From Companilactobacillus musae (GTDB lineage: Bacteria; Bacillota; Bacilli; Lactobacillales; Lactobacillaceae), in assembly GCF_003967595.1 (NCBI RefSeq), contig NZ_BIFW01000003.1, positions 52,468 to 76,467 of the forward strand: a DNA stretch of 24,000 nt. The letters run 5' to 3'. A program made the translations under genes and the position numbers. Positions 597-15,468 of this stretch are shown one piece after another. The stretch's first letter is position 1. Every line of letters starts with the position of its first letter. The notes beneath the pieces were generated by a model. It had not been told where the DNA came from. It ran no database searches and saw only the letters and a program-made list of their open reading frames with translations.

Positions 597-1613
597 TTAA
601 CGATTCATTGCAGAAGCGCCACCCATATTATTTAAAATCTCATCTTCACTTACTAAGTTTAAATCACCAGAAACAGTTAACTTCAATACACTAGCTGAAA
701 TAGCATAGTTAACTTGTTTTTGACCATCATAATTGTGTAGGAATCCATGAATCAAACCTGCACCAAAGGCATCACCACTAGCTACACCTTCATATACGTG
801 CATATTGTAGATTGGACTTTCGTAGAATTTGTTATCTCTCAATGATAATGCAGACCATTGACTGTCTTCTACTGAATGAATATTTCTAAGGATACTTGCA
901 ACGGTATGGCAATTTGGATATTGACTTACTACCTTACGCATTCCTTCTTTAAAGCTTTCCTTTTGATCAATTCCATGTTCCATATCACCATCAAAAGCTT
1001 TTATACCAAGACTTGATTCAAAATCTTCATCATTTGCTAAACAAACATTCACATAAGGCATAACCTTCTTAGAAAATGCTTGAGCCTCTTCAGGAGTCCA
1101 CATCTTACCACGATAATTAGTATCGAAAACAACTGTAATATTATGTTCCTTGCAATATTTAACGGCTGTCAAGATTGCCTTTTTTAATTCTGTAGAAATA
1201 GCAGCAGTAATACCTGAGAAATAGAAGTAATCAACTCCATCAAGTAATTTTTCCCAATCAAAATCTTCTGCCTTTGATTCAGAGAATGAACTGTTAGCAC
1301 GATCATAAACTACGTTAGTACCACGAACACTGGCACCTTTTTCAAAGAAGTAAATTCCCAAACGTGATCCACCACGTAAAACGTTACTTGTATCGACACC
1401 AAATTTACGTAAAGTTCCTAGAGCGGAGTCTCCTAACAAGTTATTTGGAAATTTTGTAACATAAGCTGCATTATCTCCTTGTAAAGATAGTGAAACTGAA
1501 ACATTTGCTTCAGCGCCACCATAAGTAGCTTCAAACGCATCTGACTGTAGGATTCTCTTATTTTCAGCTGGCTTTAAACGTAACATCATTTCACCAAAAG
1601 TTAATACTTTCAT
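597..1613 (-). CDS. kdgK: PfkB-family sugar kinase, 2-dehydro-3-deoxygluconokinase-like
   Basis: 338-aa ORF. The N-terminus MKVLTFGEMMLRL and the C-terminal GxGDAFxAG anion-hole motif (ASGDAFGAGLIHG) are typical of KdgK-type ribokinase-fold kinases. It sits next to eda. RBS GGGAGAG lies upstream of the ATG. Confidence 0.75.
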   Translation of the reverse strand: MKVLTFGEMMLRLKPAENKRILQSDAFEATYGGAEANVSVSLSLQGDNAAYVTKFPNNLLGDSALGTLRKFGVDTSNVLRGGSRLGIYFFEKGASVRGTNVVYDRANSSFSESKAEDFDWEKLLDGVDYFYFSGITAAISTELKKAILTAVKYCKEHNITVVFDTNYRGKMWTPEEAQAFSKKVMPYVNVCLANDEDFESSLGIKAFDGDMEHGIDQKESFKEGMRKVVSQYPNCHTVASILRNIHSVEDSQWSALSLRDNKFYESPIYNMHVYEGVASGDAFGAGLIHGFLHNYDGQKQVNYAISASVLKLTVSGDLNLVSEDEILNNMGGASAMNR

Positions 1614-1651
1614 TGATTACACTCTCCCTATATACAAACCCAATTTAGTAC

Positions 1652-1715
1652 AAAAAAAGTCACGATCACTTATCCTCATAACCATTGGTAACAACGAAGA
1701 TTTGGTTTCATGACT
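1652..1715 (-). terminator. Long imperfect hairpin plus T7 run (minus strand) between eda and kdgK; possible terminator or attenuator
   Basis: On the minus strand AGTCATGA (1715-1708) pairs with TCGTGACT (1665-1658, one G-U pair) around a ~42-nt structured interior, followed by TTTTTTT (1658-1652). No convincing sigma-A promoter lies between it and the kdgK start, so its function is uncertain. Confidence 0.3.
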
Positions 1716-1733
1716 TAATTTCTATAAAGACAA

Positions 1734-2387
1734 CTATTTTTTAATTATCTCTTCAAACTTCTTATGAAATGCCTCGGCATTATCCTTAATTTCATCGTAT
1801 TTATCATCTTTACCTGGTCCAACCAAGCTACCACCGACACCAACTACAAAGGCCCCATTGTCAAACCATTCGTTCATATTATCCAATGAAACGCCACCGC
1901 TAGGCATGATATTAGCGTATGGGAATGGTCCTTGAATTTCTTTGATTACACCTTTACCAGCAATTGATCCTGGGAAAATCTTTATCAAATCTGATCCATA
2001 TGTTAAAGCACTTTGAACCTCAGTTGGTGTAAAGCAACCTGGTACATAAGGAACATTATATAAATTACACAATTTAGCTGTTTCAGAATTAAAAGAAGGA
2101 CTTACAATAAACTTTGCACCAGCAATAATAGCAATTCTAGCTGTCGGAGCATCAAGAACTGTTCCTGCACCAACAACAACTTTATCGTCTTCTGAAAATT
2201 CATCGCTTAAATGTTTAATTGTTGTATCAGCATTAGGTGAAGTAAATGCTAATTCAATAGCCTTAACTCCTCCGTCAATACATGCCTTAGATATTTTATA
2301 AGAATTCTCTTCACTATATCCTCTAACAACAGCAACTACACCATTTTTTTGAACGTTTTTTAATGCTTCATATTTAAGTAATGTCAT
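1734..2387 (-). CDS. eda: 2-dehydro-3-deoxyphosphogluconate (KDPG) / 4-hydroxy-2-oxoglutarate aldolase, Eda class I type
   Basis: 217-aa ORF with Eda/KdgA-type blocks (VVAVVRG, IELAFTSP, GAGTVLD, FIVSP, PGCFTPTE, KIFPG, MPSGGV). Its ATG directly abuts the stop of the upstream kinase (TAAATG), and the RBS GAGGAA lies inside that gene's end. Confidence 0.85.
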   Translation of the reverse strand: MTLLKYEALKNVQKNGVVAVVRGYSEENSYKISKACIDGGVKAIELAFTSPNADTTIKHLSDEFSEDDKVVVGAGTVLDAPTARIAIIAGAKFIVSPSFNSETAKLCNLYNVPYVPGCFTPTEVQSALTYGSDLIKIFPGSIAGKGVIKEIQGPFPYANIMPSGGVSLDNMNEWFDNGAFVVGVGGSLVGPGKDDKYDEIKDNAEAFHKKFEEIIKK

Positions 2388-3344
2388 TTATTCCTCAACC
2401 TCATTTTCTAAATAATATTTATTTAATTCTTCTCTAGTCGGATAGCCATCGTTATCTCCATGCGTTTGAACTTGTAAAGATCCAATCGCATTTCCACGTC
2501 TAGCAGCTTGATTATACCCTTTTCCTTCAAGCAATGCCGTAATAACTCCTAATGCATATCCATCTCCAGCTCCAACGGTATCTACAACTTCGGAAACTTC
2601 GAAGCCTGGAACAATCCAACTATGACCATCTTTTGTTTTTACATATGACCCTTTAGGACCTATTTTTACAAAAACAGCTTTTGCCCGACCATTTAAATAA
2701 AAATCAGCTATTTTTTCTGGATCATCAGAACCTGTCAAAATTTTTCCTTCATCCTGTCCAGGTAAAACAATATCCGCATAAGATGCCAAACGATTTATTG
2801 TTTTAATCATTGTTTCCTTATTTGGCCACAAATCTGGTCTCAAATTAGGATCAAAAGTTAGCGTTATTCTCTTTTTGTTAAGCATTTTTGCTAAAAGAAT
2901 ACTTGTTTCTAATGTCTTTTTTGACTTCGATGGAAAAATCCCCGTTAAATGAGCTATTTTTAAATCACTCATATCAATAGAATCAATAACACTAGAGTCA
3001 ATATTTGATGCAGCTGAATTTTTTCTAAAATTAAAAACATCTGGATCCCCATGACTAATCAATTGTTTCATTTGATACCCAGTCATATATTTATCTGTTC
3101 CCAGTAAATATTTAGTACTAATTTTTCTTTTATTCAATTCATTTCTTATAAAGTCCCCTTGTGGATCATCTCCAACTTGACCGATATAGTCCACAGAATG
3201 TCCTAATCGCCTTACTCCAACAGATACATTTAGTTCTGCCCCACCAAAAACCTTATTAAAATGAACGGAATCAGAAATAGTTTTATCAACATCTGTAGAA
3301 CAGAACACCACAAGCGGTTCTCCAATGGTTAAAAACTCACTCAT
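2388..3344 (-). CDS. Second PfkB-family sugar kinase (KDG-kinase-like paralogue)
   Basis: PfkB signatures GGAELNVSVG and DTVGAGDGYALG. The track start at 3353 is a GTG. The ATG at 3344 (MSEFLTIGEP...) has AAGGTGG 5 nt upstream, so I call that as the start. Confidence 0.75.
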   Translation of the reverse strand: MSEFLTIGEPLVVFCSTDVDKTISDSVHFNKVFGGAELNVSVGVRRLGHSVDYIGQVGDDPQGDFIRNELNKRKISTKYLLGTDKYMTGYQMKQLISHGDPDVFNFRKNSAASNIDSSVIDSIDMSDLKIAHLTGIFPSKSKKTLETSILLAKMLNKKRITLTFDPNLRPDLWPNKETMIKTINRLASYADIVLPGQDEGKILTGSDDPEKIADFYLNGRAKAVFVKIGPKGSYVKTKDGHSWIVPGFEVSEVVDTVGAGDGYALGVITALLEGKGYNQAARRGNAIGSLQVQTHGDNDGYPTREELNKYYLENEVEE

Positions 3345-3413
3345 TTTGTCCACCTTTTATAAATAAATAAAAAATCTCCCTGAAGATTTTGACTCCAAGA
3401 AGATTCCTTATAA

Positions 3414-4751: not shown

Positions 4752-4789
4752 GTTTTACCCCCCTTAGAGCATCTATGACATTTATTGAA

Positions 4790-5617: not shown

Positions 5618-5644
5618 TTCAGAATCCTCCTAAAAGTTTTTGCA

Positions 5645-5673: not shown

Positions 5674-5682
5674 TATGAATAA

Positions 5683-5711
5683 AGTGTAAATCATTATTTC
5701 TCCATTTGCAA
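5683..5711 (-). promoter_or_regulatory. Candidate sigma-A promoter of the kduD operon
   Basis: On the minus strand: TTGCAA (5711-5706), 17-bp spacer, TACACT (5688-5683). The -35 hexamer is itself palindromic. Confidence 0.4.
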
Positions 5712-5755
5712 GCCCTTTCATATTTTTTACTAATCTGATATAGTCCAATATTAGG

Positions 5756-5761
5756 TATAAT
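5756..5761 (+). promoter_or_regulatory. Candidate -10 box (TATAAT) for the IclR regulator gene
   Basis: Perfect TATAAT 23 nt upstream of the ATG at 5784, with RBS AGAGAGG between them. No good -35 at 17 bp. Confidence 0.3.
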
Positions 5762-5783
5762 GTAAGAAAAGAGAGGCATTATA

Positions 5784-6539: not shown

Positions 6540-6545
6540 CAAACT

Positions 6546-6580
6546 CATATCGTTATAACGATGTGAATTTGCTTTTTTTG
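6546..6580 (+). terminator. Rho-independent terminator of the IclR gene
   Basis: Hairpin CATATCGTTA/TAACGATGTG (6546-6565, one G-U pair), followed by AATTTGCTTTTTTT. Confidence 0.6.
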
Positions 6581-6582
6581 TA

Positions 6583-6624
6583 CAAAAAAGTAGCAACCCA
6601 AGTATTTATACTTAAATTGCTACT
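6583..6624 (-). terminator. Rho-independent terminator closing the nine-gene operon
   Basis: AGTAGCAA (6589-6596) pairs with TTGCTACT (6617-6624), with an inner AAGTAT/ATACTT stem. On the minus strand it is followed by TTTTTT. It starts 11 nt after the stop of the last gene. Confidence 0.7.
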
Positions 6625-6634
6625 TTTCATAACT

Positions 6635-7372
6635 TTATCCCAATACCTTTTTAACAATTTCATACAACTTCTTAACATCCTCTGGTCTAGTTAAGCCGTC
6701 ATCACCAATGATTGAACTATATACATGAGGAATAATCTTCTTAACTCCGGCATCAACCGCAATTTGTAGAATTTCTTCAAAGTTATCTAAGTCAATTCCA
6801 CCAGTTGGTTCCAAATTAAAGTCATATTTAGCACAAGCTTCAGCTACGGCTTTGAACTCTACCTCATGTTTCAAACCACCCATTGGGAAGAATTTAATTG
6901 CTGTTCCACCCATATCTTTTAATAAGGCAATGGCTGTTTCAATTGGAACTTCAGCAGCAGGTTGTTGACTGCTTAAAGGACCTGTAGCAATATTTACCAA
7001 GCCTACTTTTCCGGTTGGTGAAACTAATCCATTAATAACTGTTTCATCTTCACCTAACAAAGCACGTGATGTTCCAACACCTGTAAATACTTGATTGACA
7101 TGTTGTGGTTTCAAAACTTTTGATACGCGGCTAACCATTTGACTTTGCTTGGGATCACCAGCGCCTAAACCAACTGAAATAGCATTTTCAACTTCTGCTT
7201 GATACTTCTTCATATCTTCAATGGCAGCTTCGTCTGTATCATAATTTTTTGTCAAAACTCCGACTACTGTGTGACCTTCAGCTGCGGCATAAATATCTTT
7301 AGCATTCTCCACAGAACCTGCAAGTACATTAATAGCAACTCTATCTTTATAATAATTAGGAATTAGTTTCAT
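6635..7372 (-). CDS. KDGP-aldolase family protein (former DUF1341); not homologous to Eda
   Basis: 245 aa. I recognise the blocks NVLAGS..NA..IY.AAEGH..VGVL.KNY, VGLGAGDP.QS.MV, PQHVNQVFTG, FPMGGLKH and EPTGGIDL.N as this family. It is the last gene of the operon. Confidence 0.7.
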   Translation of the reverse strand: MKLIPNYYKDRVAINVLAGSVENAKDIYAAAEGHTVVGVLTKNYDTDEAAIEDMKKYQAEVENAISVGLGAGDPKQSQMVSRVSKVLKPQHVNQVFTGVGTSRALLGEDETVINGLVSPTGKVGLVNIATGPLSSQQPAAEVPIETAIALLKDMGGTAIKFFPMGGLKHEVEFKAVAEACAKYDFNLEPTGGIDLDNFEEILQIAVDAGVKKIIPHVYSSIIGDDGLTRPEDVKKLYEIVKKVLG

Positions 7373-7387
7373 CTTTATATAAGCTCC

Positions 7388-8494
7388 TTAGTCCTTTTGA
7401 ATTTCTTGTAATCTATTTACAATTGCTTTCATTTCATTCGCATCAACTGCACGAATGTCAAATTCAATAATACCTTCGTTTGCTCTGTATTCACGTGTAT
7501 AAATAGCAGGATCGCCTTGCTTTAATTCTTTAGTTACTTCTTTAGCGTCTTTCTTAGAAGTTTCTTTAACGGTCACGGCTGCACGATAAATTTCACGACC
7601 TGCACCATCTTGAACTTCCTTAGCCTCAATATCAGGAACCTCATTTAAATCTTTTAAGAATGGTGCTAATCTTTGACGCATATGTTCACCATCTTCTGGT
7701 CCAATCTTGAGATAGCGTTCAATTGCCGCAGTTAAACCTAAGATATTTTCCTTACCGATCTTCATGGCACGGCCAATACCTTTCTTTTGTAGACGAATCC
7801 AATTAATATACTTAGCTTTACCATAAACTAAGCCTGATGCTGGTCCTTCTAGTGCTTTGGCACCACTAAAGATAATAATATCTACGCCTAGATCCAAATA
7901 TTTCTTCATATCTTCTTCTGCAGCAGCATCAAGAATCAATGGCAAATTATTTTTATGAGCTACTTCTACAGCTTCTTTGACGGATAGCATACTCTTTTGA
8001 ACTGTGTGGTGACTCTTTACATAAAGTACTGCTGCTGTTTTATCAGTTATCATCATTTCAATATGTTCTGGGGTACACATATTAGCATAGCCAGCTTCGA
8101 CAACATGTCCTCCACCAAGACTAATCATTACTTCTTCTGGAGTACCATAGTCGACATTGTGACCTTTAGGCATAATGATTTCACGTTTTTCAAAACGTGG
8201 ATCATTTGCATGATAAACATGATACATACTCCCCTGACCAATTAGAGCTGCAACAGACATTGCAATACCAGCTGAAGCCGAATTTACGACGATTGCATCT
8301 TCTGCACCCAATAATTTTGCTAAATGTTTTCCAGTTTGAACGTCCAAATCTGCCATTTCAAAGAAATGTGTATCACCAAATTGTTGAGCATCAATAACAT
8401 CTTCAGGCACTTGTGAAACACCCAAAATTGTCATCTTACCACTAGCATTAATAACCTTCTTTAATCCATATTCACTGTAAATATCTTCAGCCAA
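7388..8494 (-). CDS. DgaE/SelA-like pyridoxal-phosphate-dependent ammonia-lyase (D-glucosaminate-6-phosphate ammonia-lyase family)
   Basis: GLKKVINASGKMTILGVS N-terminal block and the PLP-lysine motif FSGAKALEGP. The track start at 8530 is a TTG inside the upstream gene. The TTG at 8494 sits 1 nt after that gene's TAA and 8 nt after GGAGG, giving MAEDIYSEYGLKKV. An alternative ATG lies at 8521. Confidence 0.75.
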   Translation of the reverse strand: MAEDIYSEYGLKKVINASGKMTILGVSQVPEDVIDAQQFGDTHFFEMADLDVQTGKHLAKLLGAEDAIVVNSASAGIAMSVAALIGQGSMYHVYHANDPRFEKREIIMPKGHNVDYGTPEEVMISLGGGHVVEAGYANMCTPEHIEMMITDKTAAVLYVKSHHTVQKSMLSVKEAVEVAHKNNLPLILDAAAEEDMKKYLDLGVDIIIFSGAKALEGPASGLVYGKAKYINWIRLQKKGIGRAMKIGKENILGLTAAIERYLKIGPEDGEHMRQRLAPFLKDLNEVPDIEAKEVQDGAGREIYRAAVTVKETSKKDAKEVTKELKQGDPAIYTREYRANEGIIEFDIRAVDANEMKAIVNRLQEIQKD

Positions 8495-8495
8495 T

Positions 8496-9608
8496 TTACT
8501 TTCCTCCAATTGAATATTCATTACCGGCAATAACCGAATAAATAGGTTTGATTAGCGTATCTGTCTTTCTTTGATTTCCATTTGAATCCGTTAAGACTTT
8601 TTCACCTTTTTCAACATTGAAAATTGTTAGATCTCCATCGTATCCTAAACGTAGAGAACCTTTGCTTTGTAAGTTGAAATTATCAACTGGAGCCCAAGTT
8701 ACCATTCTAATTACTTCTGGTAGTGAGTAGCCAATCAACAACATCTTTTCCAAAGTCGTTGCCATATCATAAACGGGACCATTGGCCCTATTTCTATGAT
8801 AAATATCGGTACTTACTGACTTAGGAATCAAGCCTTCATCACGTGCAATTTCTCCAGTTCTGAAGTTAAAACTGTCTGTTCCATGGCCAACATCAAAAAT
8901 CACACCACGATCATAAGCATCGAGTACGAAGTCCTTAATATGACCAGTCTTATCTAACATTCCATTAGGTTTTCCATTATAGGCATGTGTTAAGATATCG
9001 TCTCTAGACATTGAGTTTAAGACATCTTTTAATTCTGGGGGATTAGCTCCAACGTGAACCATAATTGGTAAATTAAGTTGTGCCTGAAATCTTTTAGCTT
9101 CCAATAGTGGTTTAACATCGTTATCAACAACTACTGAATGACTCTCTCTTACCTTAATACCAACAATGAAATCTTGTAATTCCTTCACTGCATCATAAAG
9201 AGGAGCTTTTTGAATTCTAGTAATATCGCCTAACTCATCCTGAGCCAAAATACCAGTCTTAGAAATATTAATCATTGCTAAAACATTAGTTTTCTTATCA
9301 CGAGTAATCTTATAAAAATCGCGAATATTGTCTGCACCAGTTGAACCAGCATCAATAACCGTTGTTACCCCAGTTAAATAACCATCTTTATCGGGATCAT
9401 CATAATAGAGACTTAGCTTTTCATAAGAATGTACATGATCATCAATCCATCCTGGAGTTACATATGATTCATGATGTAAATCAATCGTCTTTTTAGCAGT
9501 TATTCCCTCTAATTTTTCTCCGACTGCCGTAATTTTTCCATTTGTAATTGCAATTTCAATTGGTTGATTACGTTCTGTTTTACCATTCTTGATATATAAA
9601 TCTTCCAT
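8496..9608 (-). CDS. Amidohydrolase-superfamily metallo-hydrolase (deacetylase/deacylase-like)
   Basis: 370 aa. N-terminal beta-sandwich (IKNGK...ITAVG), HxH metal motif (WIDDHVHS), and later MVHVG, HAYNG and FDVGHG metal/substrate blocks typical of the amidohydrolase TIM-barrel superfamily. Confidence 0.8.
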   Translation of the reverse strand: MEDLYIKNGKTERNQPIEIAITNGKITAVGEKLEGITAKKTIDLHHESYVTPGWIDDHVHSYEKLSLYYDDPDKDGYLTGVTTVIDAGSTGADNIRDFYKITRDKKTNVLAMINISKTGILAQDELGDITRIQKAPLYDAVKELQDFIVGIKVRESHSVVVDNDVKPLLEAKRFQAQLNLPIMVHVGANPPELKDVLNSMSRDDILTHAYNGKPNGMLDKTGHIKDFVLDAYDRGVIFDVGHGTDSFNFRTGEIARDEGLIPKSVSTDIYHRNRANGPVYDMATTLEKMLLIGYSLPEVIRMVTWAPVDNFNLQSKGSLRLGYDGDLTIFNVEKGEKVLTDSNGNQRKTDTLIKPIYSVIAGNEYSIGGK

Positions 9609-9660
9609 TATAATTACACCTCAAATTTTTAAATATAAATTATTTCATTATTATTGGTAA

Positions 9661-10323
9661 TTAAACTGCAATTGGGAAGAAGAAGCCGAAAAGCATTGCA
9701 CCTAAGATTGCACCACCTGGCAATGGTTTCTTCCAAGCATAGAATATAGCAGCTCCGGCAGTTGCACCGATACCAATTGGAATTGATGCTGAAATGGCAC
9801 TCAAGATGATCAATGGTCCTAAGAAACGACCAGTTTCATTACCAGCACCCATCATAACGTCAGCTCCAAAAGTTGCATTTGACTGTCCAACCGTATACTT
9901 ACGAACAAAGAAAATTATCAAACCGATAATAATTCCAATCACTAATCCTGTAAGTAAAGCTAGTGGAAAGTTTTTAACAGGGGCAGTTAGTCCCATACTT
10001 AACATAATTGCTGGAATACCAATTCCAACACCAGTTAAAATCGAACCACCTAAATCCAAGATACCTACAAGTGAACCTTCCAAAACACGAGCAAATAAGA
10101 AACTTGCACCAAATGCTGCGGCAGGTCCAAATGACTTACCAGTTAATCCAGCCTTCAACATGGCTACAATAGCAACTTCATTAAAGGCACCCACTCCATA
10201 ATTTACATACATTGATGTTCCGGCAAAAACACCCATGGACATTAATCCGACAATAATAGGAAATGACCAATCTGCGTACCAGAAACTTTTTGCATGTTCT
10301 AGATCTTTCAAATCATCTTGCAT
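9661..10323 (-). CDS. Glycine-rich polytopic membrane protein, DUF4310-like
   Basis: 220 aa, almost entirely hydrophobic and Gly/Ala-rich segments (about 6 predicted by eye). RBS AAAGGAGGAA. The family name is from memory of this conserved gene neighbourhood. Confidence 0.65.
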   Translation of the reverse strand: MQDDLKDLEHAKSFWYADWSFPIIVGLMSMGVFAGTSMYVNYGVGAFNEVAIVAMLKAGLTGKSFGPAAAFGASFLFARVLEGSLVGILDLGGSILTGVGIGIPAIMLSMGLTAPVKNFPLALLTGLVIGIIIGLIIFFVRKYTVGQSNATFGADVMMGAGNETGRFLGPLIILSAISASIPIGIGATAGAAIFYAWKKPLPGGAILGAMLFGFFFPIAV

Positions 10324-10342
10324 GAGTTATTTCCTCCTTTAA

Positions 10343-11122
10343 TTATTTTGGTGTCACTACTGAATGCATATTGTTCAACCATGTTGGAATTCCGACTTTA
10401 AACGCCTTCAACATGTTGATATCGAATCCTCTGAAGAAACCACTCAAAACAAACAATGCTATTGTGGCGATAAGAATGATTCTTGTAATTCTCGTCCAAC
10501 CTAATTCATCGACACCTTTACCAACTAAAATTCCTAAAACAACACCAGGAACTGCATTGCCCATTATTAAAGCGGCTACACCGCCAAATACTGTTCCAAA
10601 CAATCCAGAACGACGACCAGCATCAATGGCAGCTAACCAGAAAAGAATAGGCATAACCATATTGATCAATGTATCTGCGGCTGGAACCAAAACTTTAACC
10701 GCTGTAACTTGTAACGATGCGGGAATTGATGCTGAAGTTACATTTAAAAACGGAACCAAGACTGCACCAATAATTCCACTAACAATACCCATCTTTTTAG
10801 GATTGTGGACTGTTTCCGCAACGTTTTTATTTTTTAATAAAAGAATACTTGCCGCCCAGTTTGGAATAACACGATGAGTTATATCCTGTGTAAAAGCACC
10901 AGCACCAACTGTTGATGCCCATGCATTGAAGAAGAAACCTAATCCAAATGAAAAGTGAGAAGCTGGATCGCCTTCTGCGGCATTCATTTCTCCAAGCGTT
11001 CTAAATGCACCTAGAGCTTGAACTGTTGGTGCATTGAACATACGAGCAGCACCAACACCGGCAGCAAATCCAACAGCAAGTCCAACAATTATGGACTCAA
11101 TTAAGATTGTTAATATTTGCAT
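10343..11122 (-). CDS. Polytopic membrane protein, DUF4311-like
   Basis: 259 aa with multiple hydrophobic segments. Its ATG overlaps the stop of the upstream gene (TAATG at 11120-11124), implying translational coupling. Confidence 0.65.
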   Translation of the reverse strand: MQILTILIESIIVGLAVGFAAGVGAARMFNAPTVQALGAFRTLGEMNAAEGDPASHFSFGLGFFFNAWASTVGAGAFTQDITHRVIPNWAASILLLKNKNVAETVHNPKKMGIVSGIIGAVLVPFLNVTSASIPASLQVTAVKVLVPAADTLINMVMPILFWLAAIDAGRRSGLFGTVFGGVAALIMGNAVPGVVLGILVGKGVDELGWTRITRIILIATIALFVLSGFFRGFDINMLKAFKVGIPTWLNNMHSVVTPK

Positions 11123-11493
11123 TATTTATCGCCCCTTAATAATTTCGTGAAATCAGGTATATTTATATGATCTGGTGACGGTATTTCATTATCAATAAAA
11201 TTAATATCAGACAATTTAACAGCATTTAATTCAACATCTACATCCAGAGTTAATTTGTAATTAACTCTGGTTCTCTTAAAGAAGAAGAACAGAAACTTTT
11301 CTTGATAAGAGACTCTTTCTGCATAAAGTACTCTGACTTCCTTAGGAATTATTTGTAAGGTTACTTGAGATTCATCTTTAATAACTTCATTACGAATATT
11401 ATTTAAAGCACTGGCAAACGCACGCTGCCTAGTTTCGCCATCACCAGAGACACGAACTGTTTTCACAAATTTTTTATTCAACTCTGAACTCAT
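11122..11493 (-). CDS. Small soluble protein, DUF4312-like
   Basis: I call the start at the ATG at 11493 (MSSELNKKF...), which lies 8 nt after GGAGGG. The 146-aa track ORF begins inside the upstream gene. No transmembrane segment, and alternating beta-type sequence. Confidence 0.6.
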   Translation of the reverse strand: MSSELNKKFVKTVRVSGDGETRQRAFASALNNIRNEVIKDESQVTLQIIPKEVRVLYAERVSYQEKFLFFFFKRTRVNYKLTLDVDVELNAVKLSDINFIDNEIPSPDHINIPDFTKLLRGDK

Positions 11494-11524
11494 TTCTTTC
11501 ACCCTCCAAATTAAAGCTCTATCT

Positions 11525-11887
11525 TTATGCCTTGTCAGGATATTGTTTTGCAAAAGTTTCAAGTAACTTCTTGCCTAATTCTTCCTTATCCATAAATCCA
11601 AATCCAAGAACTGTTTTTCCTTCTTGAATAGCTGTGATGCCTTCTTGAATTGATCTCATACCATGTCTTTCAGGATATCCATATTGTGTATTAGCGGTAA
11701 TAGCACCTGCACCGCCTGAACCACAGAATGAAATTCCCATATCGGCATTCTCATCATGCATAACTTTTCCTAGACGCATATCGGCTCCCATTCCTGGAAC
11801 AACAATTGCTTGCCCACCTGCATCTTCAATTCCTTTAGCAACTTTTTGGCCTTTACCCATTCTGTCTGCAATAACAACTTTAATCAT
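11525..11887 (-). CDS. Glycine-rich SFCGS-motif protein (DUF2620 / E. coli YhfU-like)
   Basis: 120 aa, with MIKVVIAD... at the N-terminus and GISFCGSGGAGAITANTQ in the middle. RBS AGGAGGA. Confidence 0.7.
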   Translation of the reverse strand: MIKVVIADRMGKGQKVAKGIEDAGGQAIVVPGMGADMRLGKVMHDENADMGISFCGSGGAGAITANTQYGYPERHGMRSIQEGITAIQEGKTVLGFGFMDKEELGKKLLETFAKQYPDKA

Positions 11888-11899
11888 AATAAATTCCTC

Positions 11900-12244
11900 C
11901 TAATTATTTTCTATAGCATTTTCAAAATGTATTGATAAAACAAATGGTTCTGATGGTGCTAAATTTCCGATTTTATTAGTAATATCTTTAGCAATGTTTA
12001 ACGCCGTATCAGACACTCCGCTGAATAATGATTCATCAACTGGATCTAATGATTGATTATCTTTTGATCTCATTACCATCTCTCCTAAGTGATTTGCCAA
12101 TACAGTCAATTGGAGATCAGTTAGATTCAAGTGATTCGTCGTGAGTTCTTTCATTGCAAATTTAAAAATACTGTATGTTTCATCCGGATATTTTGATTCT
12201 TTAATAATTTTGGCTATCTCGGGAATATCCCATTTATTTTGCAT
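11900..12244 (-). CDS. Stand-alone PRD-domain protein (E. coli YhfY-like)
   Basis: I call the start at the ATG at 12244 (MQNKWDIPE...), preceded by AGGAGGGG at 8 nt. It overlaps the regulator's 3' end by 11 nt. Two PRD-type histidine contexts: LANHLGEMVMRS and LSIHFENA. Confidence 0.7.
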   Translation of the reverse strand: MQNKWDIPEIAKIIKESKYPDETYSIFKFAMKELTTNHLNLTDLQLTVLANHLGEMVMRSKDNQSLDPVDESLFSGVSDTALNIAKDITNKIGNLAPSEPFVLSIHFENAIENN

Positions 12245-14105
12245 CAACTTGACCCCTCCTAGTATCAGATAAATGTACATATTCTAATATTGCGTTTATT
12301 TCTGATTCATTAATATCTAATCCATACTGATTAAATGTTTCCTTTAATTGCTTCTTGATCACTTGATTCGATGCTTGAATATTGTTTGTATCTTTATATT
12401 GTTCATTGAATTTAATTCGATGTATTGCCATAAATATATGAAGCATTAAAGCATCTTTATATTCATCAGAAACCTTATATTTCAATAAATTCATAACATC
12501 CTCATAAATCGAAAACATTGTCATTATCATTTCTCGGGATAACTTTTTAAATGAAGCATTGTTTTCAATTTTTGTTATCGAAGAATCAGGTTCCTTTTTT
12601 AAAGTATCAGGATTAACTTTTAAGATATTCGCTACCTTATTTTTTATTTGCTCAATATCTTGGCTAGTAGGTAATGGACTAACTTGAATTAACGGTGCAT
12701 TCAGATCAGTTAAGTCGAAGATACTAATTACCAAATCCGGTTTAAGTTTGTTTATTTGCTTTTTTGCGGCAATGAGTGAAGTAAAACCAGCAATTTCAAT
12801 GTTCGGAATATTTTCTTCTATTTTTTGTTGTATCAGATTAGTAACACCTAAACCTGTTGAACAAACATAAACAACTCTCACTTTTCTTTGATTGTTATGA
12901 ATCCTTTGCTCTGAAACCATAAAATGCAAAGCTAAAAATGAAACGAAGGAATCATTTACTATTGTTGGACTTGAAGAAACCTCTTTGATACAAACCTTAT
13001 ACAAAGCATTGAATAAACCTGGATAATTTGTCTTGATATCTTTTACAAACGGATTATATTCATTGGTAAATTGATATTTGCTATTAAATTTGCTCATTAA
13101 GTGCGATAACAAACTATCGAATAATTGCTTATCTTCACTGAATGGCTGGTTAACTTCCTCGCTAACTTCATTGATAATCAACTTTGTTAGAGTTACCAAA
13201 TTATCATCTTGAGGAATCGTTTGACCACCGTTTATAACATATTGATATTCGTCTTGATACAATGGAAAATCATATTCATCAAACATTCGTTTAAAGAGCT
13301 GAAAATCAAAAGTATCAAGCTTAACATCATTAAAATTTATCTCTTGGTAACTGTTAATCGGTTTATTAATACTTAACCTAGCAATAGAGATAGCTAATCG
13401 ACAAGAAATAGTTAATATATCGTTATAATCTAATTCTGAATTATCTTTATCAATTAGCCTGCTAGCATGTGTCAAAACTCTTTTTAGGATATATTCAAAT
13501 TCATTATTGAGACCTAGCAATAATCCAGTAACCTCATTAGAATTTAATTGCAATAAGTGAATAACCGAGTATATATCAAATTTTGAGATCACATCTTGTA
13601 TTGAAGATTCCATATATGATCTAATTGAGATTTCGCTACCAGTTAAGGTATATCCATAAAAATCTTTATGCTTTAGATGTAAATCAAATGTCCGCAAATT
13701 TTCTTTTATTTTGTCCAAATCATTCAACATCGTACTTTCACTGACATTTAATTTATTTTGAAGCTGTTGTAAAGTAACAGTCTGGTCTGTCAATGAAAGT
13801 AAAAATACTATTTGTAGTATTCTTTTTTGTGGAGCTGGATAATACTCAAATCCCGTTTGACCAATTAATTGTTTCCTAATTTCTTGTCTCACAGTTAACT
13901 CATTTTTTAACCAAATGCCAACGTGAGGTTTAGTTTGAAAAACTTGATTATCTTCTTTAAACCATTCTTTCAAATCTTTTAAATCATATTTAATTGTTCT
14001 AACACTTACACCATATATATCCGAAAGCCTTTGAATAGTAATTGGATCATCCCGATTCAACAATAGATAGACTATTTTGATTTCCCTATCTGTTAATTGC
14101 ACCAT
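12234..14105 (-). CDS. PRD- and EIIB-domain transcriptional regulator (MtlR/LicR/ManR-like; usually auto-annotated as a BglG-family antiterminator)
   Basis: 623 aa. It has two N-terminal HTH/Mga-like modules (aa ~1-160) and PRD-like regions containing LLSHLMS and LALHFMVSEQR. An EIIB(Gat)-like module follows with VRVVYVCSTGLGVTN (Cys415, codon 12861-12863). The ~100-aa C-terminal region carries LMLHIFMAIHRIKFNEQ. RBS GGAGG. Confidence 0.8.
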   Translation of the reverse strand: MVQLTDREIKIVYLLLNRDDPITIQRLSDIYGVSVRTIKYDLKDLKEWFKEDNQVFQTKPHVGIWLKNELTVRQEIRKQLIGQTGFEYYPAPQKRILQIVFLLSLTDQTVTLQQLQNKLNVSESTMLNDLDKIKENLRTFDLHLKHKDFYGYTLTGSEISIRSYMESSIQDVISKFDIYSVIHLLQLNSNEVTGLLLGLNNEFEYILKRVLTHASRLIDKDNSELDYNDILTISCRLAISIARLSINKPINSYQEINFNDVKLDTFDFQLFKRMFDEYDFPLYQDEYQYVINGGQTIPQDDNLVTLTKLIINEVSEEVNQPFSEDKQLFDSLLSHLMSKFNSKYQFTNEYNPFVKDIKTNYPGLFNALYKVCIKEVSSSPTIVNDSFVSFLALHFMVSEQRIHNNQRKVRVVYVCSTGLGVTNLIQQKIEENIPNIEIAGFTSLIAAKKQINKLKPDLVISIFDLTDLNAPLIQVSPLPTSQDIEQIKNKVANILKVNPDTLKKEPDSSITKIENNASFKKLSREMIMTMFSIYEDVMNLLKYKVSDEYKDALMLHIFMAIHRIKFNEQYKDTNNIQASNQVIKKQLKETFNQYGLDINESEINAILEYVHLSDTRRGQVDAK

Positions 14106-14152
14106 TTACACCTCCAATCAGCTTTTCTATTTATCCCCTGCTTTCACAACAA

Positions 14153-14181
14153 ACTATAAAGCGCTTACAAAAATTCCACAA
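14153..14181 (-). promoter_or_regulatory. Candidate proximal sigma-A promoter (P1) of the nine-gene operon
   Basis: On the minus strand: TTGTGG (14181-14176), 17-bp spacer, TATAGT (14158-14153), about 45 nt upstream of the regulator ATG. Confidence 0.4.
14156..14170. promoter_or_regulatory. cre-like (CcpA) site inside the P1 spacer
   Basis: The minus strand reads TTGTAAGCGCTTTAT, one mismatch to WTGNAANCGNWNNCW. Confidence 0.45.
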
Positions 14182-14282
14182 CACCTAATGTATGCACCAT
14201 AAATAGTGCAATTGATATATTTATAAAAACCAATTGGGTAATTAGCTCACCTATAAGTCTATGAAATCTACTAGAAAGTAGT

Positions 14283-14311
14283 TATATAGAGAAAATACAG
14301 GTATAGACCAA
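14283..14311 (-). promoter_or_regulatory. Candidate distal sigma-A promoter (P2)
   Basis: On the minus strand: TTGGTC (14311-14306), 17-bp spacer, TATATA (14288-14283). It would give a leader of about 170 nt. Confidence 0.3.
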
Positions 14312-14329
14312 TTTTTATATTTCATAAAA

Positions 14330-14401
14330 GGTAATTTAAATATAAAAATATTTTTTTGCAGGTAATTATTAAACACTTAATAAAAAAAACGTGTGGTAAT
14401 A
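14330..14401. repeat. Phased GGTAAT(T/A) direct repeats upstream of P2; candidate activator binding sites
   Basis: GGTAATT at 14330-14336 and 14361-14367, and GGTAATA at 14395-14401 (spacing 31 and 34 bp). A fourth GGTAATT lies at 14237-14243. A G-containing heptamer recurring this often in ~370 bp of AT-rich spacer is unexpected. Confidence 0.35.
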
Positions 14402-14435
14402 TTATTGTAAAAAATTTATTATTCTTAAAAACACA

Positions 14436-14474
14436 TAAAAACACCCATATCGTTGAGAATATGGGTGTTTTTTG
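14436..14474 (-). terminator. Rho-independent terminator of glpK-glpO-apbE (structure is bidirectional)
   Basis: 10-bp perfect stem ACACCCATAT (14441-14450) / ATATGGGTGT (14459-14468) with an 8-nt loop. T-runs flank it on both strands. It starts directly after the apbE stop. Confidence 0.8.
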
Positions 14475-15423: not shown

Positions 15424-15468
15424 AATACAACTCCCAATAACAAAATTTCTCAGAAGTTAATCAGTTTA

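What the first reader, a model, noticed from the sequence alone, without database searches (positions are those of the whole stretch)
6635..14105. Nine-gene PRD-regulated operon joins four uncharacterised proteins to a DgaE / KDGP-aldolase arm, with no kinase or known transporter
Seen in sequence: nine minus-strand genes run from the regulator ATG (14105) to a terminator at 6583-6624. Junctions are 11-nt overlap, 12, 31, 1-nt overlap (TAATG), 19, 52, about 1 and 15 nt, which fits one transcription unit. Established: in the Salmonella dga locus, DgaE converts D-glucosaminate-6-phosphate to KDPG plus ammonia, an aldolase then splits KDPG, and the phosphate is added by a mannose-family PTS. PRD/EIIB-domain regulators are normally controlled by PTS phosphoryl transfer. 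Inference: the catabolic enzymes here need a phosphorylated substrate and the regulators expect PTS input. The operon nevertheless has no EIIA/B/C, ABC, MFS or kinase gene. It has only an SFCGS protein, a DUF4312-like protein and two DUF4311/DUF4310-like membrane proteins. These four are the obvious candidates for an undescribed uptake, and possibly phosphorylating, machine for an amino or N-acyl sugar acid, with the amidohydrolase removing an acyl group before DgaE. From memory, the uncharacterised E. coli yhfS-yhfZ cluster has the same logic (YhfY PRD, YhfU DUF2620, YhfT membrane protein, Php amidohydrolase-fold protein, YhfS PLP enzyme). That would make this a widely conserved but unassigned module.
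Basis: partly seen in the sequence, partly recalled or inferred. Interest (0 to 1): 0.9.

Follow-up and report, generated by a model that had tools for sequence, protein, structure and literature searches.

The report
Amino-sugar-acid operon with unknown uptake module
A nine-gene operon, conserved from lactobacilli to Klebsiella, joins enzymes that break down an N-acylated amino sugar acid to four uncharacterised proteins that may be a new sugar-uptake machine tied to the bacterial phosphotransferase system (PTS), though this has never been tested.

Summary
The window comes from Companilactobacillus musae. The locus belongs to the TIGRFAM/NCBIfam cluster EF_0829-EF_0839/AHA_3910-3917, which is catalogued but has no assigned function; I found no functional paper.

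The same gene set recurs in about 170 fetched loci from Lactobacillales, Bacillales, Enterobacterales, Vibrionales and Bartonella plasmids. It usually has no kinase and no recognised transporter.

Four results favour a phosphorylated N-acyl-2-amino-aldonate substrate and PTS input:
- The DgaE-like lyase keeps all three arginines of the modelled phosphate site in 72/72 orthologues.
- The PRD histidines are invariant in the small PRD protein and conserved in the regulator.
- A secreted lactonase gene sits in many enterobacterial copies.
- An HPr-Enzyme I fusion gene directly follows the cluster on Bartonella plasmids.

SFCGS has an RpiB/LacAB isomerase fold, with its invariant Cys-Gly-Ser on RpiB's catalytic Cys-Gly-Thr, and is not EIIB-like. 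DUF4311 and DUF4310 resemble no known transporter. Some relatives add a KDG-kinase-like gene, a PTS EIIC or an MFS gene.

Best reading (0.4): a PTS-coupled uptake module of a new type. This is unproven.

The parts
14106..14436 (-). Promoter/leader region of the operon. It holds a weak cre-like palindrome at 14156-14169.
   Evidence: A 331-nt intergenic stretch lies between the upstream terminator and the regulator ATG. The cre match has 2 mismatches, and the window's 43 such matches are not clearly more than the 29.5 expected by chance (5 of 100 shuffles reach 43). No Rfam family matches.
12234..14105 (-). PRD-type transcriptional activator (HTH_11, Mga HTH, PRD, EIIB-like segment with Cys414, PRD-like C-terminus).
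   Evidence: Pfam HTH_11 6e-19, PRD 2e-13, Mga 4e-9. H335, H394 and C414 (VCxTG) are conserved in at least 90% of 73 orthologues. The EIIB-like segment is inferred from this motif only; Pfam does not call it.
11900..12244 (-). Stand-alone PRD protein (114 aa, EF_0829 family). Always directly upstream of SFCGS.
   Evidence: TIGR03582 scores 95 bits against a cut-off of 69. H52, H106 and R59 are invariant in 78 orthologues. It is fused to the regulator in locus L047. It is homologous to E. coli YhfY.
11525..11887 (-). SFCGS protein (120 aa): cytoplasmic (beta-alpha)5 protein with an RpiB/LacAB-like fold and invariant Cys55.
   Evidence: Pfam 5e-59. The AF2 model has pLDDT 94. The top 44 Foldseek PDB hits are all RpiB/LacAB-type isomerases, E down to 6e-5, TM 0.53-0.71. 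C55-G-S57 aligns with RpiB C66-G-T68. D8, R9, K12, C55, S57 and R78 are invariant.
11122..11493 (-). DUF4312 protein (123 aa): soluble, fast-evolving accessory subunit.
   Evidence: Pfam 2e-27. It is only 26-39% identical among orthologues and has no conserved His or Cys. No PDB relative was found.
10343..11122 (-). DUF4311 polytopic membrane protein (259 aa).
   Evidence: Pfam 1e-105. It is 66% identical between Firmicutes and Enterobacterales. It has many invariant polar residues. The AF2 model is all-helical with pLDDT 72. No PDB fold match was found; best E 2.1.
9661..10323 (-). DUF4310 polytopic, glycine-rich membrane protein (220 aa).
   Evidence: Pfam 5e-96. It has 15% Gly and about 6 hydrophobic segments. 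It is 65% identical across phyla. It is not related to DUF4311, YhfT or EIIC by hhalign.
8496..9608 (-). EF_0837-type amidohydrolase, the putative N-deacylase.
   Evidence: TIGR03583 scores 508 bits against a cut-off of 432. The closest PDB entry is 2ICS (E. faecalis EF_0837), E 1e-126.
7388..8494 (-). DgaE-family PLP ammonia-lyase (TTG start).
   Evidence: TIGR01437 scores 552 bits. The DgaE equivalog scores 385, below its 600 cut-off. PDB 7LC0 (Salmonella DGL) E 3e-87. H162, H163, K213, R304, R334 and R348 are invariant in orthologues.
6635..7372 (-). KDGP (DgaF-type) aldolase.
   Evidence: Pfam 1e-105. The NCBIfam DagF equivalog scores 389 bits against a cut-off of 300.
6583..6628 (-). Intrinsic terminator of the operon.
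   Evidence: A 20-bp hairpin, -24 kcal/mol, z -7.25, followed by a U tract.
597..3353 (-). Neighbouring genes outside the operon: KDG-kinase-like PfkB (597-1613), Eda aldolase (1734-2387) and a second PfkB (2388-3353). They could supply phosphorylation under the rival explanation.
   Evidence: Pfam PfkB and Aldolase. The best NCBIfam matches are KDG/KDGal kinases. A homologue of the 597-1613 kinase sits inside the operon in about 12 related loci.

Best explanation
The operon is a self-contained catabolic unit for an N-acylated 2-amino-2-deoxy-aldonic acid. The best candidates are N-acetyl-D-glucosaminate or a close stereoisomer, which arise from lactones made by oxidation of GlcNAc or chitin.

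Proposed sequence of steps:
1. The four-protein module takes up the sugar acid. The module consists of two polytopic membrane proteins (DUF4311 and DUF4310), the cytoplasmic RpiB-fold protein SFCGS with an invariant cysteine, and the accessory protein DUF4312.
2. The module is coupled to PEP, Enzyme I and HPr, and delivers the substrate as the 6-phosphate. The phosphoryl group most likely passes through Cys55 of SFCGS.
3. The EF_0837-type amidohydrolase removes the acyl group.
4. The DgaE-type PLP lyase eliminates ammonia to give KDPG or KDPGal.
5. The DgaF-type aldolase splits that product into pyruvate and glyceraldehyde-3-phosphate.
6. The Mga/PRD activator and the small PRD protein read the phosphorylation state of the system and of HPr, which gives induction and catabolite control.

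Shown here: gene order, families, conservation, the fold of SFCGS, and conservation of catalytic and phosphate-site residues. Inferred: the transport role, the phosphoryl transfer and the substrate identity.
For: - The nine-gene set is the whole conserved unit in five orders: Lactobacillales, Bacillales (Lysinibacillus, Listeria), Enterobacterales, Vibrionales (Salinivibrio), and Hyphomicrobiales (Bartonella plasmids). Flanks are unrelated housekeeping genes. In most loci the four proteins are therefore the only candidates for uptake.
- The substrate is probably phosphorylated. The DgaE-like lyase keeps the three arginines modelled as the 6-phosphate site in 72/72 orthologues (PMC9529869). The aldolase reaches the DgaF equivalog. 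In locus L093 it is replaced by an Eda-type KDPG aldolase. Yet 65 of the 80 genome loci, and the separately fetched Lysinibacillus, Listeria, Salinivibrio, Xenorhabdus and Bartonella loci, have no kinase nearby; none of the 80 metagenome loci matched the window's kinases.
- There is a PTS link. The PRD histidines and the EIIB-like cysteine are conserved. Proteobacterial regulators carry a PTS_EIIA_2 domain. On two Bartonella plasmids an HPr-Enzyme I fusion gene follows the cluster 64 bp downstream on the same strand, with no EIIA/B/C.
- SFCGS, DUF4311 and DUF4310 are as or more conserved across phyla (71, 66 and 65%) than the enzymes (65, 50 and 45%). The SFCGS family collapses to essentially one 50%-identity cluster among 1.84 billion representatives. 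This fits a tightly co-adapted machine.
- Three loci carry only the regulator, the small PRD protein and the four-protein module. SFCGS therefore travels with the membrane proteins rather than with the soluble enzymes.
- The substrate class is supported. A signal-peptide lactonase (PF10282) lies between the aldolase and the regulator in Klebsiella, Serratia, Mixta, Sodalis and Enterobacillus, and in 37 of 80 metagenome loci. A deacetylase precedes the lyase. A non-phosphorylative counterpart pathway for N-acetylglucosaminate is known (PMC9537276).
Against: - The SFCGS fold is closest to RpiB/LacAB isomerases, and its Cys-Gly-Ser sits on their catalytic dyad. No PTS EIIB appears in the top 50 fold hits. 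A true EIIB does not align through the cysteine.
- No EIIA-like partner is present in the window. DUF4312 lacks any conserved His or Cys.
- DUF4311 and DUF4310 show no similarity to EIIC, EIID or any solved transporter. The DUF4311 model is only moderately confident, and DUF4310 was not modelled.
- Some relatives add a KDG-kinase-like gene (15 loci), a lactose/cellobiose-family EIIC with a MupG-like gene (about 14 loci), or an MFS gene (L041).
- The window has two KDG-kinase-like genes nearby.
- The HPr-EI association is a single evolutionary event and could serve only the PRD regulator.
- The regulator-small PRD fusion in L047 suggests the small PRD protein is regulatory rather than a phosphocarrier.
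- The arginine phosphate site rests on manual docking, not on a solved complex.
Confidence: 0.4

Rival explanations
1. The module is a secondary transporter that does not phosphorylate. DUF4311/DUF4310 import the sugar acid, and SFCGS is a soluble RpiB-type isomerase or epimerase acting on an intermediate. Phosphorylation is done by a KDG-kinase-type PfkB enzyme. That kinase is encoded nearby (as in the window), in the operon (Enterococcus variant) or elsewhere. The PRD regulators only impose HPr-dependent catabolite control.
For: - SFCGS has the RpiB fold and a matching Cys/Ser dyad.
- KDG-kinase-like genes lie 3-6 kb away in the window and inside the operon in about 12 relatives.
- The known N-acetylglucosaminate pathway phosphorylates only at the KDG step (PMC9537276).
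- The membrane proteins show no EII-like features.
Against: - The phosphate-site arginines of the lyase are invariant.
- 65 of the 80 genome loci, and the loci fetched separately, have no kinase nearby.
- The in-operon kinase mostly comes together with EIIC and MupG, a second entry route that would release an unphosphorylated aglycone.
- SFCGS stays with the membrane genes in the three loci that carry only the regulator, the small PRD protein and the module.
- SFCGS lacks RpiB His99/Asn100 and the C-terminal arginine helix, judged from a partial alignment.
- This reading leaves the PRD regulators without an inducer-sensing partner, and it does not explain the HPr-EI gene on the Bartonella plasmids.
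Confidence: 0.3
2. The four proteins are not a transporter. They form a membrane-bound enzyme or sensor complex, for example an isomerase anchored to the membrane or a signalling device that reports substrate to the PRD regulators. Uptake is done by unrelated permeases, such as the orphan EIIC-GAT next door, or the EIIC or MFS genes seen in relatives.
For: - Other transporters occur in some operons: EIIC in about 16 loci and MFS in L041.
- An orphan EIIC-GAT lies 2 kb downstream in the window.
- The conservation and the many invariant polar residues in the membrane proteins are unusual for a permease.
- The small PRD protein is fused to the regulator in L047.
Against: - Most loci in five orders have no other transporter within 10 kb.
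- No cofactor-binding or catalytic motif was recognised in the membrane proteins.
- Three loci carry only the regulator, the small PRD protein and the module; for those a sensor reading is possible but an enzyme reading is not.
Confidence: 0.15

Closest known systems
Salmonella D-glucosaminate pathway (dgaABCDEF with DgaR)
   Same: - A DgaE-family PLP ammonia-lyase with the same catalytic histidines, PLP lysine and arginine cluster.
- A DgaF-type KDGP aldolase at equivalog level.
- The end products are pyruvate and glyceraldehyde-3-phosphate.
- Phosphorylated intermediates are expected.
   Different: - There is no mannose-family PTS (DgaABCD) and no sigma-54 activator.
- An extra amidohydrolase implies an N-acylated substrate.
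- The lyase falls below the DgaE equivalog cut-off (385 against 600 bits), so the stereochemistry or substrate may differ.
- Regulation is by PRD proteins.
Oxidative chitin (N-acetylglucosaminate, GlcNAc1A) pathway of Pseudoalteromonas: OngB deacetylase, OngC deaminase, KdgK (PMC9537276, PMC12017989)
   Same: - The chemical logic is the same: deacetylate an N-acetyl amino aldonate, eliminate ammonia to a 2-keto-3-deoxy acid, then enter the Entner-Doudoroff route.
- The lactonase and the chitobiose-type EIIC/MupG genes in relatives fit an oxidised-GlcNAc source.
   Different: - The enzymes belong to other families. OngB is D-aminoacylase-like (PMC12017989), whereas this locus has an EF_0837-type amidohydrolase and a SelA-like DgaE lyase; relatedness to OngB and OngC was not tested here.
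- That pathway phosphorylates only at KDG.
- Its transporters are unrelated.
- No experimental link between that pathway and this cluster was found.
PTS Enzyme II complexes (EIIA/EIIB/EIIC, plus EIID in the mannose family)
   Same: - The system has two membrane subunits plus small cytoplasmic subunits, one with an invariant cysteine in a Gly-rich loop of a Rossmann-like fold.
- It is encoded under PRD regulators.
- It is adjacent to HPr-EI in one lineage.
   Different: - No sequence or fold similarity to any EIIA, EIIB, EIIC or EIID was found.
- The cysteine lies after strand 3, as in RpiB, not after strand 1 as in Rossmann-type EIIB (the latter from general knowledge).
- No histidine carrier other than the PRD protein is present.
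RpiB/LacAB sugar-phosphate isomerases (for SFCGS)
   Same: - The (beta-alpha)5 fold matches; TM 0.53-0.71 over the top 44 hits.
- Cys-Gly-Ser/Thr occupies the same loop.
- An Asp follows strand 1.
   Different: - SFCGS is about 30 residues shorter and lacks the C-terminal arginine helix.
- His99/Asn100 are not conserved.
- The Pfam LacAB_rpiB score is 12.5 bits against a cut-off of 24.7.
- SFCGS is always encoded with membrane proteins.
E. coli yhfS-yhfZ cluster (YhfY PRD, YhfU DUF2620, YhfT membrane, Php, YhfS)
   Same: - YhfY is homologous to the small PRD protein (E 1.9e-5).
- YhfU and SFCGS both give weak hits to the RpiB cysteine loop and to each other's families.
- The overall composition is similar: PRD protein, small Cys protein, membrane protein, amidohydrolase-fold protein and PLP enzyme.
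   Different: - YhfT is not detectably related to DUF4311/DUF4310.
- Php and YhfS align only weakly (hhalign E about 0.06) with the amidohydrolase and the lyase.
- The yhf cluster has no aldolase.
- YhfY lacks the second PRD histidine.

Membership tests
EF_0829-EF_0839 / AHA_3910-3917 conserved hypothetical cluster (TIGR03577-03583, TIGR03581) | Each protein scores above the curated cut-off of its hypothetical-equivalog model. | tested here: met
   Bits against cut-off, all:
- TIGR03582: 95 / 69
- TIGR03577: 203 / 141
- TIGR03578: 107 / 90
- TIGR03580: 436 / 301
- TIGR03579: 348 / 215
- TIGR03583: 508 / 432
- TIGR03581: 391 / 222
EF_0829-EF_0839 / AHA_3910-3917 conserved hypothetical cluster | The genes are clustered together in both Gram-positive and Gram-negative genomes. 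| tested here: met
   Synteny holds in 80 genome loci and 80 metagenome loci.
Salmonella Dga pathway | [quoted passage not shown] | tested here: not met
   NF047797 scores 384.6 bits, below its 600 cut-off. Catalytic and phosphate-site residues are nevertheless conserved. The protein is a family member, not a proven isofunctional enzyme.
Salmonella Dga pathway | A DgaF equivalog (KDPG aldolase of the KDGP_aldolase family). | tested here: met
   NF047796 scores 388.8 bits against a cut-off of 300.
Salmonella Dga pathway | A mannose-family PTS permease (DgaABCD) and a sigma-54 activator (DgaR). | tested here: not met
   No such domains occur in the operon proteins or in the ten flanking proteins scanned, which cover about 600-6540 and 14476-19950.
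PTS Enzyme II | A membrane subunit homologous to a known EIIC or EIID family. | tested here: not met
   There is no Pfam hit beyond the DUF models, even at E up to 10. hhalign against EIIC-GAT and EIIC-cellobiose gives E 0.14 or worse. Foldseek against PDB gives best E 2.1 (moderate-quality model of DUF4311 only).
PTS Enzyme II | An EIIB-type carrier with a phosphorylatable Cys or His. | tested here: inconclusive
   Cys55 is invariant and lies in a Gly-rich loop beside invariant R9, K12 and R78. However, the fold and motif match RpiB, not EIIB.
PTS Enzyme II | An EIIA-type histidine carrier. | tested here: not met
   None occurs in the window operon. DUF4312 has no conserved His. Only the PRD histidines are candidates.
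PTS Enzyme II | PEP/EI/HPr-dependent phosphorylation of the transported substrate. | not testable with these tools
   Only contextual evidence exists: an HPr-EI fusion next to the cluster on Bartonella plasmids.
RpiB/LacAB isomerases (SFCGS) | The RpiB fold. | tested here: met
   The top 44 Foldseek PDB hits are RpiB/LacAB-type proteins, E 6e-5 to 8.5e-3, TMq 0.53-0.71. The model has pLDDT 94.
RpiB/LacAB isomerases (SFCGS) | A catalytic Cys and Thr/Ser in the strand 3-helix 3 loop. | tested here: met
   hhalign aligns C55-G-S57 with E. coli RpiB C66-G-T68 (E 3.6e-4).
RpiB/LacAB isomerases (SFCGS) | A family-level sequence score and the remaining active-site residues (His99, Asn100, Arg133, Arg137). 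| tested here: not met
   Pfam LacAB_rpiB scores 12.5 bits against a cut-off of 24.7. The aligned positions are Gln/Glu, and the C-terminal helix is absent (partial alignment).
E. coli yhf cluster | Homology of each component. | tested here: inconclusive
   - YhfY against the small PRD protein: E 1.9e-5.
- YhfU against SFCGS: E 0.068-0.15.
- YhfT against DUF4311/DUF4310: no credible match, at most 10% probability over 47 columns.
- Php and YhfS: about E 0.06, which is superfamily level only.

The most novel reading that the evidence does not exclude
SFCGS, DUF4312, DUF4311 and DUF4310, possibly with the small PRD protein as the histidine relay, form a previously unrecognised family of PEP-dependent group-translocating permease. 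In this reading the cysteine carrier was recruited from the RpiB isomerase fold rather than from any known EIIB, and the two membrane subunits have a fold with no solved relative. The permease is dedicated to N-acetyl-amino-aldonates such as the LPMO/oxidase product N-acetylglucosaminate. The E. coli YhfY/YhfU/YhfT proteins would be a distant second branch.
Probability: 0.3. Interest if true: 0.9.

Novelty: new variant of a known kind. Interest (0 to 1): 0.7.

Why it matters
Four domain-of-unknown-function families, and possibly E. coli YhfU, YhfT and YhfY, would receive a function. If the module is PTS-coupled, it would be the first new Enzyme II architecture in decades, and its phosphocarrier would be derived from an isomerase fold.

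The cluster occurs in Klebsiella, Enterococcus (including a composite transposon of an outbreak VRE strain, PMC11934601), Listeria, Serratia, Pantoea, and insect-gut and termite-gut bacteria. A defined substrate would therefore identify a nutrient niche. One candidate is oxidised chitin or GlcNAc products, for which no Gram-positive or enteric route is known.

The hypothesis can be tested directly with a few substrates and mutants.

Tried and rejected
- **DUF4311 model.** It is only moderate (pLDDT 72). It gave no PDB match (best E 2.1, TM below 0.2). This is a weak negative.
- **Membrane-protein homology.** DUF4311 against DUF4310, both against YhfT, and both against EIIC-GAT or EIIC-cellobiose all gave no credible homology (hhalign probability 10% or less; best E 0.003 over 47 columns for DUF4311 against YhfT).
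- **DUF4312.** Sequence and profile searches against PDB returned only spurious hits: RecA concatemers matching a 20-residue helix.
- **SFCGS by sequence.** Sequence and profile searches against PDB found nothing. Only the structure comparison found RpiB.
- **Exhaustive HMM search with SFCGS.** Among 1.84 billion representatives there was no outgroup and no informative fusion. The two long hits match in five or six short stretches and look like repeat artefacts, though I did not inspect them.
- **Literature.** Searches for DUF4310/4311/4312/SFCGS, EF0829-0837, the TIGR numbers, cog3964/2ICS and the PDB codes 8WZY/8T7J found no functional study.
- **Chitin-related neighbours.** Recurrent flanking genes in Enterobacterales are housekeeping genes: pmbA, cybC, mpl, fbp and yjgA. 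I saw no chitinase or LPMO among the annotated neighbours. This was not tested exhaustively.
- **More EI or HPr adjacency.** The only other case is Enterococcus ratti, where the housekeeping ptsHI operon happens to lie upstream. I did not count it. None was found in the 80 metagenome loci.
- **cre site and promoter repeats.** The window's count of cre-like matches is not clearly above chance.
- **Rfam.** No family matched in the window.

Full report
**1. Observation.** ORF listing and direct reading of the minus strand confirm nine co-directional genes from 14105 to 6635.
- an 11-nt overlap (small PRD ATG at 12244 against the regulator stop at 12234);
- gaps of 12 and 31 nt;
- the TAATG 1-nt overlap at 11122;
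- gaps of 19, 52, 1 (DgaE-like TTG at 8494) and 15 nt.

The 3' hairpin (6585-6628) folds at -24 kcal/mol with z = -7.25 and runs into a U tract. The preceding gene (ApbE family) has its own terminator at 14437-14472. No Rfam family matches anywhere in the window.

**2. Identity of the parts.**
- an HTH_11/Mga/PRD activator;
- a 114-aa PRD protein;
- Gly_rich_SFCGS, DUF4312, DUF4311 and DUF4310;
- an EF_0837-type amidohydrolase;
- a DgaE-family PLP lyase;
- a KDGP aldolase.

Seven of the nine proteins pass the curated cut-offs of the hypothetical-equivalog models TIGR03577-03583, which define the EF_0829-EF_0839/AHA_3910-3917 cluster. The lyase passes the DgaE subfamily model TIGR01437; the regulator has no such model. 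The locus is thus a member of a catalogued but functionally unassigned cluster.
- The lyase reaches the DgaE subfamily model but not the D-glucosaminate-6-phosphate lyase equivalog (385 against 600 bits).
- The aldolase does reach the DgaF equivalog (389 against 300 bits).

The SFCGS protein is 100% identical to a Companilactobacillus musae protein. Downstream of the operon lies a separate KDG/uronate cluster: an IclR regulator, KduD, an orphan EIIC-GAT, two KDG-kinase-like PfkB genes and Eda. Full-text searches found only one paper naming these DUFs, and it lists them as ORFs of an E. faecium composite transposon. Searches by locus tag, TIGR number and PDB code found no functional work.

**3. 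Comparative genomics.** A scan of one genome per species found at least 526 species with an SFCGS gene. I analysed the best 80 loci.
- The block small PRD - SFCGS - DUF4312 - DUF4311 - DUF4310 is contiguous throughout.
- The amidohydrolase, lyase and aldolase follow it in most loci, or flank it in some Bacillales and Companilactobacillus.
- The regulator is upstream in Firmicutes and downstream in Proteobacteria.
- Flanks in Enterobacterales are housekeeping genes (pmbA, cybC, mpl, fbp, yjgA), so the nine genes are the whole unit.
- The same set, with no kinase or other transporter nearby, occurs in Lysinibacillus, Listeria, Salinivibrio, Xenorhabdus and a divergent metagenomic clade, and in 80 metagenome loci.

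The informative variants are these:
- **(a)** About 14 loci (an Enterococcus clade, Pseudolactococcus, a Lactobacillus MAG and one further contig) add a lactose/cellobiose-family PTS EIIC and a MupG-like 6-phospho-N-acetylhexosaminidase. Most of these also add a KDG-kinase-like PfkB gene after the aldolase.
- **(b)** Klebsiella, Serratia, Mixta, Sodalis and Enterobacillus, and 37 of the 80 metagenome loci, carry a signal-peptide "lactonase, 7-bladed propeller" gene between the aldolase and the regulator.
- **(c)** One Clostridia locus adds an MFS gene and a second amidohydrolase.
- **(d)** The divergent clade replaces the KDGP aldolase with an Eda-type aldolase.
- **(e)** Three loci (two Vagococcus, one Enterococcus) have only the regulator, the small PRD protein and the four-protein module, set among unrelated genes. 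In one of them the regulator and the small PRD protein are fused.
- **(f)** On two related 55-kb Bartonella plasmids, the nine genes are followed 64 bp later, on the same strand, by a 671-aa HPr-Enzyme I fusion. No EIIA/B/C is present.

**4. [quoted passage not shown] These are R304, R334 and R348 in the window protein, and they are invariant in 72 of 72 orthologues. The carboxylate-binding Arg226 is Lys or Arg.

Three observations bear on the product and the intermediates:
- the aldolase is DgaF-type;
- one lineage substitutes an Eda-type aldolase;
- the lyase keeps the arginine cluster.

Together they indicate a product of KDPG or KDPGal and phosphorylated intermediates. The phosphate-site assignment rests on docking, so this step is inferred. 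The amidohydrolase is closest to E. faecalis EF_0837 (PDB 2ICS, E 1e-126). Its position before a deaminating lyase implies removal of an N-acyl group. The exported lactonase in many Proteobacteria points to an aldono-lactone/aldonate as the external substrate.

The chemistry parallels the N-acetylglucosaminate (GlcNAc1A) pathway of Pseudoalteromonas: OngB deacetylase, OngC deaminase and KdgK (PMC9537276). That pathway, however, is not phosphorylated until KDG, and OngB at least belongs to a different family (D-aminoacylase-like, PMC12017989); relatedness to OngB and OngC was not tested here. The EIIC/MupG/kinase variant would fit a disaccharide such as chitobionic acid. That substrate would be phosphorylated on the non-reducing GlcNAc and cleaved to GlcNAc-6-P plus free N-acetylglucosaminate, which then needs a kinase. 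This substrate assignment is my inference, at about 0.3. From general knowledge, periplasmic PQQ-glucose dehydrogenase could also generate such lactones from GlcN or GlcNAc.

**5. The four uncharacterised proteins.**

*SFCGS.* An alignment-based AlphaFold model is confident (pLDDT 94, five beta-alpha units). The top 44 Foldseek PDB hits are all RpiB/LacAB-type isomerases, including a KduI-like ketol-isomerase (E from 6e-5, TM 0.53-0.71). No PTS EIIB appears in the top 50.
- hhalign places Cys55-Gly-Ser57 on E. coli RpiB Cys66-Gly-Thr68 (E 3.6e-4).
- Pfam gives sub-threshold hits to LacAB_rpiB at the same loop, and to DUF2620 over nearly the full length. YhfU behaves the same way.
- A genuine Gat-family EIIB does not align through the cysteine.
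- Invariant residues cluster in the loops after strands 1, 3, 4 and 5: D8, R9, G11, K12, G13; S53, C55, S57; R78, S79; G95-F-G-F-x-D100.
- RpiB His99/Asn100 and the C-terminal arginine helix are missing.
- The family is extraordinarily tight. An exhaustive HMM search of 1.84 billion representatives returns 91 hits, nearly all of them fragments of one 50%-identity cluster. It shows no outgroup and no informative fusion.

*DUF4312.* This protein is soluble and evolves fast (26-39% identity). It has no conserved His or Cys, so it cannot be an EIIA-like carrier.

*DUF4311 and DUF4310.* These are polytopic, Gly/Ala-rich and full of invariant polar residues.
- They are unrelated to each other, to YhfT and to EIIC proteins by profile comparison.
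- The DUF4311 model (pLDDT 72) matches no solved structure.

*Conservation across phyla.* SFCGS, DUF4311 and DUF4310 are 71, 66 and 65% identical between Firmicutes and Enterobacterales. The aldolase, lyase and amidohydrolase are 65, 50 and 45%. The small PRD protein, DUF4312 and the regulator are 33, 36 and 24%.

**6. Regulation.** The regulator keeps the two PRD histidines (H335, H394) and a VCxTG cysteine (C414) in at least 90% of orthologues. Proteobacterial versions end in a PTS_EIIA_2 domain. The small PRD protein has invariant H52, H106 and R59 and is homologous to E. coli YhfY. These features predict phosphorylation by HPr and by a cognate EII-like partner, which would normally be encoded in the regulated operon (general knowledge of PRD regulators).

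**7. Weighing the explanations.**
- the enzymes look phosphate-dependent;
- the regulators look PTS-dependent;
- the conserved unit has no kinase or recognised permease;
- one lineage has added HPr-EI to it.

The four proteins, or at least the three highly conserved ones, are therefore the best candidates for uptake coupled to PEP-dependent phosphorylation. I give this 0.4.

The main counter-evidence is that SFCGS is an RpiB-like protein with RpiB's catalytic dyad. This favours an enzyme reading. Together with the KDG-kinase-like genes nearby and in some operons, it supports a non-phosphorylating transporter plus isomerase plus kinase model (0.3). That model, however, leaves three things unexplained:
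- the invariant phosphate-site arginines in kinase-less loci;
- the three loci that carry only the regulator, the small PRD protein and the module;
- the HPr-EI gene.

A membrane enzyme or sensor with uptake by other permeases remains possible (0.15).

**8. Comparison and novelty.** The catabolic arm is a new variant of the Salmonella Dga route. It has an extra deacylase, different regulation and no mannose-family PTS. It works like a phosphorylative counterpart of the GlcNAc1A pathway. The four-protein module fails every membership test for known EII components, and SFCGS fails the family-level test for RpiB although it shares the fold. The yhf analogy is real for the PRD protein, weak for YhfU and absent for YhfT.

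Annotators already know the cluster as a conserved hypothetical, so its existence is not new. What is new here:
- the RpiB-fold assignment of SFCGS;
- the conserved phosphate site of the lyase;
- the lactonase and HPr-EI associations;
- the kinase/EIIC/MupG variant;
- the link to N-acetyl-amino-aldonates.

I rate it a new variant of a known kind. There is roughly a 0.3 chance that it is a categorically new type of PTS permease.

Noticed in passing
window 3414-4751 (-), within 597-6539: An orphan EIIC-GAT gene (395 bits, below the 542-bit galactitol cut-off) sits between KduD and a PfkB kinase. This KDG/uronate cluster has an IclR regulator but no EIIA or EIIB gene. The gene may encode a PTS-independent or shared-EIIAB permease for a uronate or KDG-type substrate.
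   Followed up: partly
L088 8047-10062 (Bartonella sp. HY406 plasmid NZ_CP104895.1), L097 15405-17420: A 671-aa HPr-Enzyme I fusion is annotated as ptsP. It lies 64 bp downstream of the cluster's regulator on two related 55-kb plasmids, between the replication region and a type VI secretion cluster.
   Followed up: yes
L092 15256-16410 (Klebsiella); L045, L046, L072, L074; 37 of the metagenome loci L098-L177: A signal-peptide lactonase (PF10282) gene is inserted between the aldolase and the regulator. This gives a ten-gene version that is common in Enterobacterales.
   Followed up: yes
L047 5692-7908: The regulator and the small PRD protein form one 738-aa ORF in a Vagococcus MAG (residues 5-621 are the regulator, 628-735 the small PRD protein). 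It is either a natural fusion or a lost stop codon.
   Followed up: partly
L013 12441-19351 and the equivalent stretches in L002, L019, L025-L033, L050, L060, L062, L085: An EIIC (lactose/cellobiose family) and a MupG-like gene are inserted into or appended to the operon; a KDG-kinase-like gene accompanies them in most of these loci but was not detected in L029, L050 or L085. No EIIA or EIIB gene accompanies the EIIC.
   Followed up: partly
L093 4830-5477: In a divergent clade of the cluster, an Eda-type (PF01081) aldolase replaces the KDGP_aldolase. This is a non-orthologous replacement, consistent with a KDPG-type product.
   Followed up: no
L013, L019, L025-L029, L032, L033 at about 6200-7240: A Gfo/Idh/MocA oxidoreductase gene lies about 0.5 kb upstream of the regulator in the Enterococcus clade, preceded by a MazF toxin gene. 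It could oxidise a sugar to the lactone, or it could be unrelated.
   Followed up: no
window 14156-14169: A palindromic cre-like sequence (TGTAAGCGCTTTAT, 2 mismatches) lies about 50 nt upstream of the regulator ATG. The window's 43 matches at this stringency are not clearly more than the 29.5 expected by chance (5 of 100 shuffles reach 43).
   Followed up: partly
window 14203-14229 and 14303-14329: A 27-nt AT-rich direct repeat (74% identity, 100-nt spacing) lies in the promoter region. It could be a regulator binding site or simply low-complexity sequence.
   Followed up: no
L034 5501-7494: In Enterococcus ratti the housekeeping ptsH-ptsI operon lies directly upstream of the cluster's regulator. 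I judged this a chance adjacency and did not count it as evidence.
   Followed up: yes
SFCGS family as a whole; P0258 clade: The SFCGS family is essentially one 50%-identity cluster in 1.84 billion representatives. One divergent clade has lost Asp8 and Lys12 but keeps the CGSGGAG loop and the same gene neighbourhood.
   Followed up: partly
window 14476-18800 (-): Upstream of the operon lie an ApbE flavin-transferase gene, a GlpO-type glycerol-3-phosphate oxidase gene and a glycerol kinase gene. This is an ordinary glycerol cluster, unrelated to the finding.
   Followed up: no
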